From Escherichia coli (GTDB lineage Bacteria; Pseudomonadota; Gammaproteobacteria; Enterobacterales; Enterobacteriaceae), in the NCBI RefSeq assembly GCF_003018255.1, contig NZ_CP027441.1: a DNA stretch of 64,000 bases. One strand, 5' to 3'. A program made the position numbers. Positions 32,107 through 35,100 of the stretch are shown piece by piece; position 1 is the stretch's first letter; each line of letters starts with the position of its first letter.

Positions 32107-35100
32107 TCATTTCAATAAACCTGGCGACCTCTGCCATCCCTTCCTGATTTTCAGCCTGCCAGCGTTCAGCACGCAGGCGCCGGGCTTCGTTCTGCATGGT
32201 CGTACTGACCAGACCGGAGATATTCACGTCATACGCCTTGAGCAGCTGATAGCTGTCGCTGTCAACTGTCACTGTAATACGCTGCTTCATAGCACACCTC
32301 TTTTTGACATACTTCTGGTATGCATATCAGTATATATTATTATGATGCAAAAATCAGCGCGTTAATACACATACTGTTATCTGGCTTTTAGTAAGCCTTA
32401 TTTATTTTACCTTACATTATGTTAACCAATAAAAATTAAAATCAGACTTATAAAAACAAAGCGTAATTATCGAATGACCATTTCCGGCAGATCCGATTTT
32501 TCTGTTATTTACTGGTTTCCGGAAGTGTACCACGCTGAGGAAATCATCATATCGCTGTTTTCCGCCCCTGCGTGGCGCATCACAGGTCAGGGAAATAACA
32601 CAACATATAGTGTCATAATCAGCCAAATGAAGCACTACATGTTGTACTTACAGGAGGCGGCGTTGTGTGGGGGAGAGGAAGATCCGTGACAGCCGGAAAC
32701 CGGATCTGTGCGGCAGAGAACGGGCAGGAGATATGATAATTAAGCGGCGTACATAAAATCATATCAGATATGATTTTCACCATTAGATATAAAACCATAC
32801 CTGATATTATCAGAAATCAATAATACACAAATCATGCAGGATATGATTTTTACCTTTAATAACATTATCAGATGGAGCGTGCAGGATGGATGAAGAAAGG
32901 GTGTTTTCACTCAGCTATGAACAACTGACCCGGTTTGCGGAACGACGCATCCGGGAATGCAATCTGGACAGCCAGGGCGCGATTTATCTCTGCGAGTCAG
33001 CCAAAGCCGGAGCCGTGCTGATCTTCTGGCATGAACTGGCCATAAATGGCTATGCCTCAATGAATGCCATAAAGAGACAGGAGCTCATTGACGCCGACTT
33101 TCAGCGCCTCAGAAAGCTCATCTGGCCGGAGGATGACTGGAAATGACTCAGAGCCGCCGACCGTCGCCACTGCAGCGGAGAGTGCTGATTGTGCTGGCTA
33201 CCCTTGATGAAAAACGGCCAGGCCCCGTGCTGACGCGGGACCTGGAACGGGTGCTGGAGCGAAGCGGGGAAACCCCGGTCTACGGGCCAAACCTGCGCGC
33301 CTCCTGCCGTCGTCTGGAGGATGCTGGCTGGCTGCGTACCCTGCGCGCTCCGAACCTGCAGCTGGCAGTGGAGCTGACGGACGCCGGCCGGGCCGTGGCA
33401 CAGCCTCTGCTGCTGGCAGAACAGGACCGCTTCCGGGCAGAACAGCGTGCGGCAGAAGTCGTCGTACTGCCGCTGGTCCCGGCAGCAGGTCTGCCCGCAG
33501 ACGGCACTTCTGCCACTGATCTGGCGGTGCAACTGAACGGCATAACGTATCTGGCCTGCCGTGGGGATTTTGTGGTGCGTCTCGACGGCAGCACCTGTCT
33601 GCAGTTATGGAATAAAGAAGGCAGGGTGGTACGCCGGGAGGGCGATCCGCTGGAAGTGGCGCAGTGGCTGCAGGCCTGTCACGATGCAGGAATGGAGGTT
33701 CGTGTGCAGGTTAATGAAAGCATCACCCCGTAAAAACATGCCAGCACGATTTACACATCATCCCATGGTGGCAGCCGGTTAACTTTCCTGCGCCACCAGT
33801 GGAAAGAGGCCGTGAGCAGTCCGAACAAAAAACCATCTGTGATACTTATAATAATGGCCTCACCTGCCACCATTCCTGACGGCCCCCAGTAGATAAACCA
33901 CATTGCACATCCCCAGGAAATGCCCCATAAGCTCCCCATCAACAGCGTGACCTGCCAGAACGGCATAAAGGGTAATGGCGGAAGCCGGATACCCAGCCGC
34001 CAGAGAATACACAGAAGAGGAGGGGCATAATTGCTCCGCCACATCTTTTTGCTGTCCATCAGGGCAATGGCTCGGGCTTTTTTCTGCTCAAAGGTCACAG
34101 GAGCACCTCCGTTCCATGATGTAAACGTGACACAGCTTATTGTTATTGATTATTATTATCATGCTGTGGTTATGTTGTCATGCATCAGTACACTGACAAA
34201 AGTGCAAAAGAAAGGAAAACAGGCAGATGAACAGAAAATATTATTTTAATAATATGTGGTGGGGATGGGTGACGGGGGGATATATGCTGTATATGTCATG
34301 GGATTATGATTTTAAATACAGATTACTGTTCTGGTGTATTTCTCTCTGCGGAATGGTTTTGTATCCGGTTGCCAGATGGTGTATTGAAAATACAGCCCTG
34401 TAATTTACCCGGCTTCATTGCTGGAACAGCGTTTTTTTACTGATACTCTCGGAAAAATGGGATTACTTGCGGTTTATACGGGTACTGTTTTCATATTATC
34501 TCTTCCGTTAACTCTGATATATATTCTTTCTGTTATCATAAAGGCTGTCTGTAAGATAGACAGCCTGTCTTATATATTATTTAAATGCCCCAGAACTTAT
34601 TCGCTTTTTCCACAAGCGTTTCATCAATCAGTGCACCGGTGACAGCCATCAGTAAACCATACTCGATAATGCCTAAAGCGCTTCCGGTAAGAATACTGAA
34701 GACCAGAGCAACAAGAGCCGTTGCGGCATTACCTGCTATGATGGTTTCTGTTTTAACAAAAAAAGGACGCCAGTTACCTGTCCGGGCAGCCTTACCAAAC
34801 TCAGTGATCCAGTCGGCAAAATTTGTAATTTTTCCTGCATATCCTAGTCCCCGACTGAATCTGTTCAGATTAAACGATATATCAGACAGTTTCACAGCCA
34901 TAGCTCCCGCAGGAAAGAGTACCTGCGAGAGACGATATTCTGCACGGTTCATATATTCATCCGGGGCAGGAATATCGGCCCGGTACAATCTGTCCGGGCC
35001 GGATGGGTAATTTACAGGATGTTCGCGATGGATTTAGCCAGCTGGTCTTCCAGTACAGGCTTCGCTTCTTCAAATTTCAGGTTAACCTTGTTGGCATTAG

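What the first reader, a model, noticed from the sequence alone, without database searches (positions are those of the whole stretch)
32886..34175. Duplicated GC-rich three-gene module next to both colicin I immunity genes (copy 1 at 16835..18090, copy 2 at 32886..34175)
An ~1.26-kb block (about 95% identical between copies) encodes an 86-aa protein, a translationally coupled 196-aa protein with a likely winged-helix N-terminus, and a divergent 115-aa two-helix membrane protein with a GTG start. It appears beside the colicin Ib immunity gene and again beside the colicin Ia immunity pseudogene. Its base composition (~60% GC) differs sharply from the AT-rich colicin genes, so it is not simply part of the colicin operon. 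It could be an exclusion, toxin-antitoxin-like or regulatory system.
Basis: seen in the sequence. Interest (0 to 1): 0.65.

Follow-up and report, generated by a model that had tools for sequence, protein, structure and literature searches.

The report
Shared flank of two colicin loci
The repeated block is the conserved flank shared by the plasmid's colicin Ib locus and its decayed colicin Ia locus, and it holds two separate, already catalogued but uncharacterised units: a probable self-regulating DNA-binding gene pair (ydfA-ydeA) and a small, probably iron-regulated, membrane protein gene (ybaA).

Summary
The duplication is real: 16833-18111 and 32917-34193 are 95.9% identical. It recurs in about 20 independent complete pO113-like plasmids, so it is not an assembly artefact. 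The genes are ydfA (86 aa), ydeA (196 aa) and ybaA (115 aa, DUF6404) of ColIb-P9/R64/pS88, all "conserved hypothetical". They lie beside both immunity genes because ColIb and ColIa loci share this flank ancestrally, and this hybrid IncI/IncFIB plasmid carries one of each.

It is not one three-gene module. ybaA travels with colicin I immunity genes. ydfA-ydeA occurs in more than 5,000 plasmids, mostly without ybaA. Copy 1 has lost the ydfA start and promoter.

- Three conserved palindromic operators lie upstream of ydfA, so an autoregulated repressor operon is the likeliest reading.
- In other plasmids ydfA-ydeA sits in a defence/cargo hotspot and heads the ydfA-ydeA-ibfA-fopA operon.
- The ybaA-imm spacer carries a 16/19 Fur box over both predicted -10 elements. 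The only other match in 64 kb is the known cib Fur box.

Toxin-antitoxin and exclusion roles are unsupported or untested. The finding is mostly ordinary, with modest leads.

The parts
32917..34193 (.). Repeat copy 2 (the complete unit extends left to the ydfA start at 32886 and its operators from 32755)
   Evidence: BLASTN between copies: 95.9% over 1279 nt; repeat families D1/D2
16833..18111 (.). Repeat copy 1, truncated at its left end inside ydfA
32755..32777 (.). Operator-like site O1: perfect 11+11 inverted repeat AAAATCATATC-a-GATATGATTTT
   Evidence: I3; conserved in IncI pN537 and Klebsiella IncFIB(K); the motif is unique to this region in 64 kb
32789..32810 (.). Operator-like site O2 (imperfect palindrome). 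It overlaps an extended -10-like TGATATTAT at 32802-32810
   Evidence: The -10 was read directly from the sequence and agrees with the BProm-predicted TSS 69 nt upstream of ydfA in pUA1135 (PMC12111858)
32829..32850 (.). Operator-like site O3, ending 36 nt before the ydfA ATG. Sites are spaced about 36.5 bp apart
32886..33146 (+). ydfA (86 aa, acidic, pI 5.1). No family assignment; fast-evolving
   Evidence: name taken from LC567074/pS88
33143..33733 (+). ydeA (196 aa): winged helix (residues 9-78), long helix (80-104), variable linker, PH-like beta domain (127-190)
33751..34098 (-). ybaA (115 aa, DUF6404): basic inner-membrane protein with two predicted TM helices, N-in/C-in
   Evidence: Pfam PF19942 E 9e-36; phrog_31022 E 3e-36; hydropathy and charge; alignment A5
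34142..34160 (-). Fur-box-like site (16/19, GATAATAATAATCAATAAC) in the ybaA-imm spacer. It overlaps the -10 of both divergent promoter-like sites (ybaA: 34181..34152 on the - strand; imm: 34127..34156 on the + strand)
   Evidence: identical in ColIb-P9, a ColIa IncF plasmid and pO113
34227..34559 (+). Colicin Ia immunity pseudogene (premature TAA at codon 59, plus 1-nt and 2-nt deletions)
34581..34988 (-). Remnant of colicin Ia (C-terminal pore domain only), abutting traT
16808..17061 (+). ydfA remnant of copy 1 (5' end replaced; no ATG/GTG/TTG start; no operators)
17059..17649 (+). ydeA copy 1 (196 aa, 95% identical to copy 2), without its native promoter
17669..18016 (-). ybaA copy 1 (115 aa, 94% identical to copy 2)
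18060..18078 (-). Fur-box-like site of copy 1, identical to that of copy 2
18135..18482 (+). Colicin Ib immunity gene (intact). Its promoter-like site at 18045-18074 lies inside the repeat
18500..20380 (-). cib (colicin Ib, 626 aa), with a promoter-like site at 20482..20454 and a Fur box at 20491-20509
   Evidence: Fur and LexA control of cib is documented in PMC3879352

Best explanation
The 1.28-kb repeat is the conserved flank that colicin Ib and colicin Ia loci inherit in common. This hybrid IncI/IncFIB plasmid carries an intact ColIb locus and a decayed ColIa locus, so the flank appears twice. The flank holds two independent units.

Unit 1 is the ydfA-ydeA operon. YdeA is a MarR/HxlR-like winged-helix protein that most likely binds, as a dimer, the three ATCATAT-N3-ATATGAT palindromes that overlap the ydfA promoter. 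In that way it would repress its own operon and whatever is transcribed downstream of it. In R64-type plasmids the downstream genes are the phage-defence gene ibfA and the FinO-family gene fopA. The PH-like C-terminal domain and the small acidic YdfA are candidate modulators of that repression. The fold, the operators and the co-transcription in a relative are shown. DNA binding and repression are inferred.

Unit 2 is ybaA, a two-helix inner-membrane DUF6404 protein transcribed divergently from the immunity gene. Their shared spacer contains a Fur box, so ybaA is probably switched on by iron starvation together with colicin I. Its likeliest role is membrane-level protection (auxiliary immunity or exclusion) when TonB-dependent receptors are derepressed. 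That last step is speculative.
For: Ancestral synteny: cib-imm-ybaA-ydeA-ydfA in ColIb-P9; cia-imm-ybaA-ydeA-ydfA in pS88 and pF16EC0659. Homology between the copies stops 24-34 nt before the unrelated Ia and Ib imm genes.

Separability: counts.

Operators: three palindromes about 36.5 bp apart, conserved in Klebsiella although YdfA there is only 33% identical, and found nowhere else in 64 kb (3 sites against 0.41 expected).

Co-transcription of ydfA-ydeA-ibfA-proQ/fopA was shown by RT-PCR in pUA1135 (PMC12111858), and the same gene order occurs in IncFIB/FIC and IncK2/Z plasmids. Flanking genes are defence candidates: PDC-S06, HEC-04 and PDC-S35.

ybaA: Fur-box matches in 64 kb occur only at the cib promoter and at the two ybaA-imm spacers (0.02 expected). 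The box is identical in four other plasmid loci. In pS88, ybaA rises 3-9 fold with cia in iron-limited media while ydeA and ydfA fall (PMC3879352 and PMC3438092). DUF6404 occupies accessory/moron positions in prophages and lies in a siderophore-uptake cluster in Klebsiella.
Against: No DNA-binding, expression or phenotype data exist for YdeA or YdfA. The operators could belong to another regulator. A 27-residue in-frame deletion in the long helix and linker is common in IncF plasmids, so that segment may be dispensable, or those copies may be inactive. YdfA could not be modelled and has no detectable relatives outside enterobacterial plasmids.

The pS88 fold changes for ybaA are individually non-significant (p 0.10-0.20). 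imm shares the Fur box but was not induced by the iron chelator in LB. ybaA is frameshifted in the ColIb-P9 reference and is often truncated elsewhere, so it is dispensable for colicin production, immunity and plasmid maintenance. Xenorhabdus prophage homologues have no Fur box.
Confidence: 0.6

Rival explanations
1. ydfA-ydeA is a type II toxin-antitoxin (addiction) pair with reversed gene order. YdfA would be a small toxin, and YdeA a DNA-binding antitoxin that neutralises it through its C-terminal domain and autoregulates the operon.
For: There are two small translationally coupled genes (ATGA overlap) on plasmids next to ccdAB and partition genes. The DNA-binding domain is in the second protein, as in HigBA and MqsRA (own knowledge). 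The operators are palindromic. In copy 1 the upstream gene is destroyed while ydeA stays intact, which is the usual decay order if YdfA were the toxin.
Against: No match to any toxin or antitoxin family in Pfam, NCBIfam, PADLOC or PHROGs. YdfA is acidic (pI 5.1), which is unlike most toxins. Distant YdeA homologues have no coupled upstream ORF. Deleting the whole operon in pUA1135 was tolerated without comment (PMC12111858).
Confidence: 0.1
2. ybaA is the functional substitute for the missing colicin I lysis/release gene. It would be transcribed by read-through from the Fur/LexA-controlled colicin promoter, through the antisense immunity gene, and would help the colicin leave the cell.
For: ybaA is on the colicin strand, immediately distal to the opposite-strand imm gene. 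That is the position of lysis genes in colicin E1/A-type operons (own knowledge). Only a weak hairpin with a 3-T tail follows cib. ybaA tracks cia expression in pS88.
Against: YbaA has no lipobox or signal peptide and is a 115-aa two-TM protein, unlike the roughly 45-50-aa lysis lipoproteins. It has its own promoter-like site, Fur box and strong Shine-Dalgarno sequence. It is frameshifted in the colicin-producing reference plasmid ColIb-P9. DUF6404 homologues occur in prophages and chromosomes without any colicin.
Confidence: 0.08
3. The three genes form one mobile cassette that inserted independently beside each immunity gene.
For: The composition is unusual (ydeA is 64-65% GC in a 48% GC plasmid). 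The block is found in many plasmid types.
Against: There are no terminal repeats, transposase or target duplications at the block ends. The right end of homology coincides with the start of the diverged imm genes, and the left end of copy 1 is a truncation inside ydfA. The same gene order is fixed in the reference ColIb and ColIa plasmids. The components are distributed separately.
Confidence: 0.03

Closest known systems
ydfA, ydeA and ybaA of ColIb-P9 / R64 / pS88 (annotated 'conserved hypothetical proteins')
   Same: They are the same genes, at 94-97% nucleotide identity and in the same order next to cib/cia-imm.
   Different: Nothing differs functionally. Here the set is present twice, copy 1 has lost the 5' end of ydfA, and the Ia locus is decayed.
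MarR / HxlR / PadR-type winged-helix repressors
   Different: No Pfam or NCBIfam model of these families is matched. YdeA has an added long helix and a PH-like C-terminal domain found only in its own small family: 216 representatives among 1.84 billion proteins.
BrxR / CapW-type wHTH-WYL regulators that flank defence systems
   Same: The logic is the same: an N-terminal winged helix plus a C-terminal beta-rich putative sensor domain, encoded at the edge of defence genes and probably repressing them.
   Different: There is no WYL domain by sequence or fold. The protein is much smaller and is paired with a small upstream protein. The resemblance is functional analogy only.
Lysis genes of colicin E1/A-type operons
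   Same: ybaA occupies the same position relative to the colicin and immunity genes.
   Different: It is not a lipoprotein, is more than twice as long, has two TM helices, and has its own promoter and Fur box.
Small membrane 'moron' proteins of prophages, such as superinfection-exclusion proteins (P22 SieA-like)
   Same: DUF6404 is a lone small inner-membrane gene next to immI-like Arc/Ant genes, tail-fibre genes, integrases and TA pairs in prophages.
   Different: No sequence relationship to any characterised exclusion protein was found, and no phenotype is known.

Membership tests
DUF6404 (Pfam PF19942) | Significant full-length match to the family HMM | tested here: met
   E 9.1e-36, residues 1-114 against model 1-114/115; PGAP also names it a DUF6404 family protein
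MarR/HxlR/PadR winged-helix regulators | Winged helix-turn-helix fold | tested here: met
MarR/HxlR/PadR winged-helix regulators | Match to a family sequence model | tested here: not met
   Pfam best hits are AbiEi_4 (E 0.15) and PaaX (E 0.22); NCBIfam gives none; the PDB profile search gives MarR at E about 0.013 only
MarR/HxlR/PadR winged-helix regulators | Binds palindromic operators at its own promoter | tested here: inconclusive
   Three conserved palindromes are present, but binding cannot be tested with these tools
Type II toxin-antitoxin systems | Homology of either partner to a known toxin or antitoxin family | tested here: not met
   No hits in Pfam, NCBIfam, PADLOC or PHROGs
Type II toxin-antitoxin systems | Obligate pairing of the two genes across relatives | tested here: not met
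   YdeA relatives in L008-L013 have no upstream coupled ORF
Type II toxin-antitoxin systems | One partner is toxic and the other neutralises it | not testable with these tools
   Needs expression experiments
Colicin lysis (release) lipoproteins | Small (about 45-50 aa) protein with a signal peptide and lipobox cysteine | tested here: not met
   115 aa, charged N-terminus, two internal hydrophobic helices, no lipobox
Pore-forming colicin immunity proteins (E1/Ia type) | Sequence similarity to immunity proteins; 3-4 TM helices | tested here: not met
   BLASTP against Ib immunity gives E 5.7; only two hydrophobic helices are predicted
ColIb-P9 abortive-infection gene 'ibfA' (T5/BF23) | Identity with the ORF at NC_002122 13,401-13,745 | tested here: not met
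   That ORF is a different 114-aa protein lying beyond ydfA and a DUF4238 gene
Fur regulon | Fur box overlapping the promoter | tested here: met
   16/19 match over both -10 elements. Matches in 64 kb occur only here (twice) and at the known cib Fur box, with 0.02 expected
Fur regulon | Derepression under iron limitation or in a fur mutant | tested here: inconclusive
   In pS88, ybaA rises 5.3, 4.9 and 8.9 fold in chelated LB, urine and serum, but with p 0.10-0.20 (PMC3438092)
wHTH-WYL defence regulators (BrxR/CapW) | WYL (Sm/SH3-like) ligand-binding domain | tested here: not met

The most novel reading that the evidence does not exclude
YdfA-YdeA would be a dedicated control cassette for a plasmid defence/cargo hotspot. 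A winged-helix repressor with a previously undescribed PH-like sensor domain and a small partner protein would keep costly defence genes (ibfA/HEC-04, PDC-S06, PDC-S35 and others) and the FinO-family gene fopA silent until a signal arrives. YbaA/DUF6404 would be a Fur-controlled inner-membrane protection factor, carried by plasmids, prophages and satellites, that guards cells against TonB-dependent colicins or phages when iron starvation raises receptor levels.
Probability: 0.18. Interest if true: 0.6.

Novelty: new member of a known kind. Interest (0 to 1): 0.3.

Why it matters
As a duplication it does not matter much. It follows from a hybrid plasmid carrying two related colicin loci, and the genes have been catalogued for over twenty years.

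The side results are useful for plasmid biology. ydfA-ydeA is present in more than 5,000 sequenced enterobacterial plasmids (about 7% of PLSDB) with no assigned function. It now has a testable model: a defined operator, a defined DNA-binding domain, and a position at the head of a defence-gene slot.

The Fur box in the ybaA-imm spacer suggests that colicin I immunity and a neighbouring DUF6404 membrane protein are tied to iron status, as the colicin and its receptor CirA are. That could bear on reports that imm seems partly redundant in Salmonella.

The work also flags a name collision. The plasmid ydeA is not the chromosomal arabinose exporter ydeA, and at least one published GWAS interpretation has been misled by this.

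Tried and rejected
1. ybaA as the ColIb-P9 'ibfA/abi' gene that aborts T5/BF23 infection. The size matched, but the coordinates point to an unrelated 114-aa ORF about 2.4 kb away from ybaA.
2. A second small-gene pair in the Klebsiella locus as a paralogue of ydfA-ydeA. It is a DUF1778/GNAT-type toxin-antitoxin pair by sequence.
3. YbaA as an orphan pore-former immunity protein. It has no similarity to Ib immunity.
4. C-terminal extensions of long YdeA relatives as fused YdfA, or as the Klebsiella downstream gene. hhalign probability is below 1%.
5. A wider YdeA regulon in this window. The operator motif occurs only upstream of ydfA.
6. Known RNA elements. There are no Rfam matches in the 64 kb.
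7. Family scans of YdfA and YdeA in Pfam, NCBIfam and PADLOC gave nothing significant. PHROGs gave only phrog_19460 (unknown function, E 9e-8) on the winged helix.
8. The PDB sequence search found nothing for YdfA.
9. A Fur box upstream of the Klebsiella chromosomal and Xenorhabdus prophage DUF6404 genes. None was found; only the L017 satellite-like element has a 15/19 box.
10. The literature has no paper containing 'DUF6404', and none linking ybaA to colicins.
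Full report
OBSERVATION. The window contains a direct repeat, 16833-18111 and 32917-34193: 1279 aligned bases, 95.9% identity, one gap. They are an 86-aa ORF (32886-33146, +), a 196-aa ORF overlapping it by ATGA (33143-33733, +), and a 115-aa ORF with a GTG start on the other strand (33751-34098). The GTG start is credible. A GGAGG lies 7 nt upstream, and the Pfam DUF6404 model aligns from residue 1 to 114.

Copy 1 is not a full copy. 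Homology begins 31 nt inside the 86-aa gene, and no ATG, GTG or TTG start remains in frame. The first 12 residues are replaced, including four residues that are invariant in the family. PGAP can only call the ORF with an ATT start. GC content is 58.4% and 56.9% for the two blocks, but only the 196-aa gene is really GC-rich at 64-65%. The same two copies occur in about 20 independent complete plasmids, including pO113, so the duplication is not an assembly artefact.

WHAT THE GENES ARE. The window is a pO113-like hybrid plasmid (IncFIB plus IncI-gamma/K1). Records and papers that use the R64/ColIb-P9 naming scheme identify the genes as ydfA (86 aa), ydeA (196 aa) and ybaA (115 aa), all 'conserved hypothetical'. 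In ColIb-P9 the order is cib-imm-ybaA-ydeA-ydfA. In ColIa plasmids (pS88, pF16EC0659-1) it is cia-imm-ybaA-ydeA-ydfA.

Homology between the two window copies ends 24-34 nt before the Ib and Ia immunity genes, which are unrelated to each other. The repeat is therefore the conserved flank of an ancestral colicin I locus. It appears twice because this plasmid has an intact ColIb locus and a decayed ColIa locus. In the decayed locus, imm has a premature stop and two small deletions, and only the 3' end of cia remains, next to traT. Nothing at the block ends suggests transposition.

NOT ONE MODULE. Megablast counts in PLSDB are as follows.
- ybaA is in 2,511 records, 2,056 of them near full length.
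- ybaA together with an intact Ib imm is in 647 records, and with an intact Ia imm in 954.
- ydfA-ydeA is in 3,918 records.
- The whole block is in 1,509 records.

At the protein level YdeA is in more than 5,000 plasmids, including about 2,055 from Klebsiella, whereas only 70 Klebsiella plasmids have ybaA. So ybaA belongs with colicin I immunity, and ydfA-ydeA is a much more widespread plasmid operon.

UNIT 1, ydfA-ydeA. Family libraries give nothing significant for either protein. An AlphaFold model of YdeA built on a 22-sequence alignment is confident (pLDDT 87). It shows a winged helix (residues 9-78), a long helix (80-104), a low-confidence linker that varies in length among relatives (169-214 aa forms), and a beta-rich C-terminal domain.

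The family is small: 216 representatives among 1.84 billion proteins. ydeA is under purifying selection (dN/dS 0.16-0.31), while ydfA evolves quickly. The Klebsiella YdfA is only 33% identical. Distant YdeA relatives have no coupled upstream ORF, so YdeA can work without YdfA.

Upstream of the intact ydfA lie three palindrome-like sites about 36.5 bp apart. O1 (32755-32777) is a perfect 11+11 inverted repeat. O2 (32789-32810) overlaps an extended -10-like TGATATTAT. O3 (32829-32850) ends 36 nt before the start codon. The half-sites ATCATAT/ATATGAT are conserved upstream of the IncI and Klebsiella operons despite strong protein divergence. The motif occurs nowhere else in the 64 kb.

In the IncI1 plasmid pUA1135, RT-PCR showed one transcript covering ydfA, ydeA, ibfA and a ProQ/FinO-family gene. 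ibfA alone accounted for the phage defence (PMC12111858). The same order, with a different gene in the ibfA slot, occurs in IncFIB/FIC and IncK2/Z plasmids. The genes flanking the pair are recognised or candidate defence genes: PDC-S06 (E 3e-286), HEC-04 (E 8e-42) and PDC-S35, which is TIR-like (E 2e-60).

The best reading is an autoregulated winged-helix repressor operon that anchors, and probably controls, a variable defence/cargo slot. The fold, the operators and the co-transcription are shown. DNA binding and repression are inferred. Copy 1 has lost the promoter, the operators and the ydfA start, so its ydeA is at best expressed by read-through from the parA-like operon upstream. That operon is on the same strand, and no terminator-like site lies between them.

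UNIT 2, ybaA. YbaA is a basic (pI 9.9) protein with two hydrophobic helices (about 50-70 and 76-100) and lysine/arginine clusters at both ends. This implies an N-in/C-in hairpin in the inner membrane. The most conserved parts are the N-terminal 47 residues and the C-terminal tail rather than the membrane helices. It is unrelated to the Ib immunity protein. It is also not the ColIb-P9 'ibfA' abortive-infection gene, which is a different ORF.

ybaA is divergent from imm, and promoter-like sites face both ways in the 128-bp spacer. A search with the Fur-box consensus (3 or fewer mismatches) found matches at only three places in the 64 kb. One is the cib promoter, where Fur control is documented (PMC3879352). 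The other two are the ybaA-imm spacers, each with a 16/19 match covering both -10 elements, against 0.02 expected by chance. The box is identical in ColIb-P9, a ColIa IncF plasmid and pO113.

In pS88, ybaA rose 5.3, 4.9 and 8.9 fold in chelated LB, urine and serum, as cia did, while ydeA and ydfA fell. The ybaA changes were not individually significant (PMC3438092).

Elsewhere, DUF6404 occurs as a lone accessory gene. It lies next to Arc/Ant immI-like genes in Xenorhabdus prophages. It follows tail-fibre genes beside a HigBA-like pair, sits beside an integrase, or lies near an AlpA-like gene in IMG/VR contigs. In Klebsiella it lies between TonB-dependent receptor genes of a siderophore-uptake cluster. 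One diverged locus (L017) also has a 15/19 Fur-like box upstream.

I infer that ybaA is a Fur-repressed membrane protein of the colicin I locus. A protective role when TonB-dependent receptors are derepressed is the most plausible guess, but it is only a guess. ybaA is frameshifted in the ColIb-P9 reference and often truncated elsewhere, so it is not essential for colicin production or immunity.

RIVALS. A reversed-order toxin-antitoxin pair is possible but weakly supported. No family matches exist, YdfA is acidic, YdeA relatives lack a partner, and deleting the whole operon was tolerated. A colicin release function for ybaA fits its position and expression. It does not fit its architecture, its own promoter, its frameshift in ColIb-P9, or its occurrence away from colicins. 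Independent insertion of a three-gene cassette is contradicted by the block ends and by the separate distributions of the parts.

VERDICT. The useful products are a concrete operator/repressor model for a very widespread uncharacterised plasmid operon, its placement at a defence-gene hotspot, and a predicted Fur box linking ybaA and imm to iron status.

Noticed in passing
window 16407-16489: A perfect tandem array of 10.4 copies of the 8-bp unit CTTGTTAT, immediately downstream of a ParA-like (15478-16104) and a small 100-aa gene (16101-16403). It is probably the centromere of that partition system. It directly abuts the breakpoint region that truncates ydfA copy 1.
   Followed up: partly
window 20491-20509: A Fur-box match (2-3 mismatches, palindromic) at the cib promoter next to a TTGACA-17-TAAATT promoter-like site. 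It agrees with the published Fur/LexA control of colicin Ib and served as a positive control.
   Followed up: yes
L015 1159-1479 (ColIb-P9, NC_002122 about 10658-10978): ybaA is frameshifted near its 3' end in the ColIb-P9 reference sequence (106 aa with an aberrant tail), which is why no gene is listed there. Many other database copies are also truncated.
   Followed up: partly
literature, PMC12987596: An IncK2 plasmid GWAS interprets the plasmid gene 'ydeA' as the chromosomal MFS L-arabinose exporter YdeA. If the plasmid gene is the 196-aa winged-helix protein, as in the IncK2/Z plasmid examined here, this is a name collision and the dietary interpretation would not follow.
   Followed up: partly
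P0098 and about 1,000 IncF plasmid records (e.g. L004 6001-6510): A 169-aa YdeA variant with an in-frame 27-residue deletion removing most of the long helix and linker is widespread in IncF plasmids. Whether it is active is unknown.
   Followed up: no
P0361, P0363, P0365, P0367, P0370, P0371; L013 6001-7287; L030 914-1876: Some YdeA relatives are 300-428 aa long, with a conserved C-terminal extension of 100-230 residues. The extension has no detectable relation to YdfA or to the Klebsiella downstream gene.
   Followed up: partly
window 34542-34566: An 11-bp-stem perfect hairpin (AGGCTGTCTGT-AAG-ATAGACAGCCT) lies between the convergent 3' ends of the Ia imm pseudogene and the cia remnant. It contains the imm stop codon and is a likely bidirectional terminator. 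The ColIb locus has only a weaker hairpin with a 3-T tail after cib.
   Followed up: no
window 1309-2606 vs 7469-9352 (repeat families D3-D5): There are further 83-96% identical direct repeats inside the plasmid leading region (ardA, psiA, psiB, ssb and DUF1380 genes, according to the near-identical record). They may be repeated leading-region intergenic elements. They were not examined.
   Followed up: no
window 15104-15220 vs 27760-27876 (D6): A 117-nt repeat (98% identical) appears to correspond to umuC fragments on either side of a segment that, in the related record, carries IS66-family elements. This suggests an insertion or rearrangement that split umuC.
   Followed up: no
L015 2725-3726 and 3902-4246 (ColIb-P9): Between ydfA and the resolvase/partition genes, ColIb-P9 carries a DUF4238 gene and the 114-aa 'ibfA' membrane-like ORF credited with T5/BF23 abortive infection. 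Neither is in PADLOC-DB (for DUF4238), and this segment is missing from the window because of the copy 1 truncation.
   Followed up: partly
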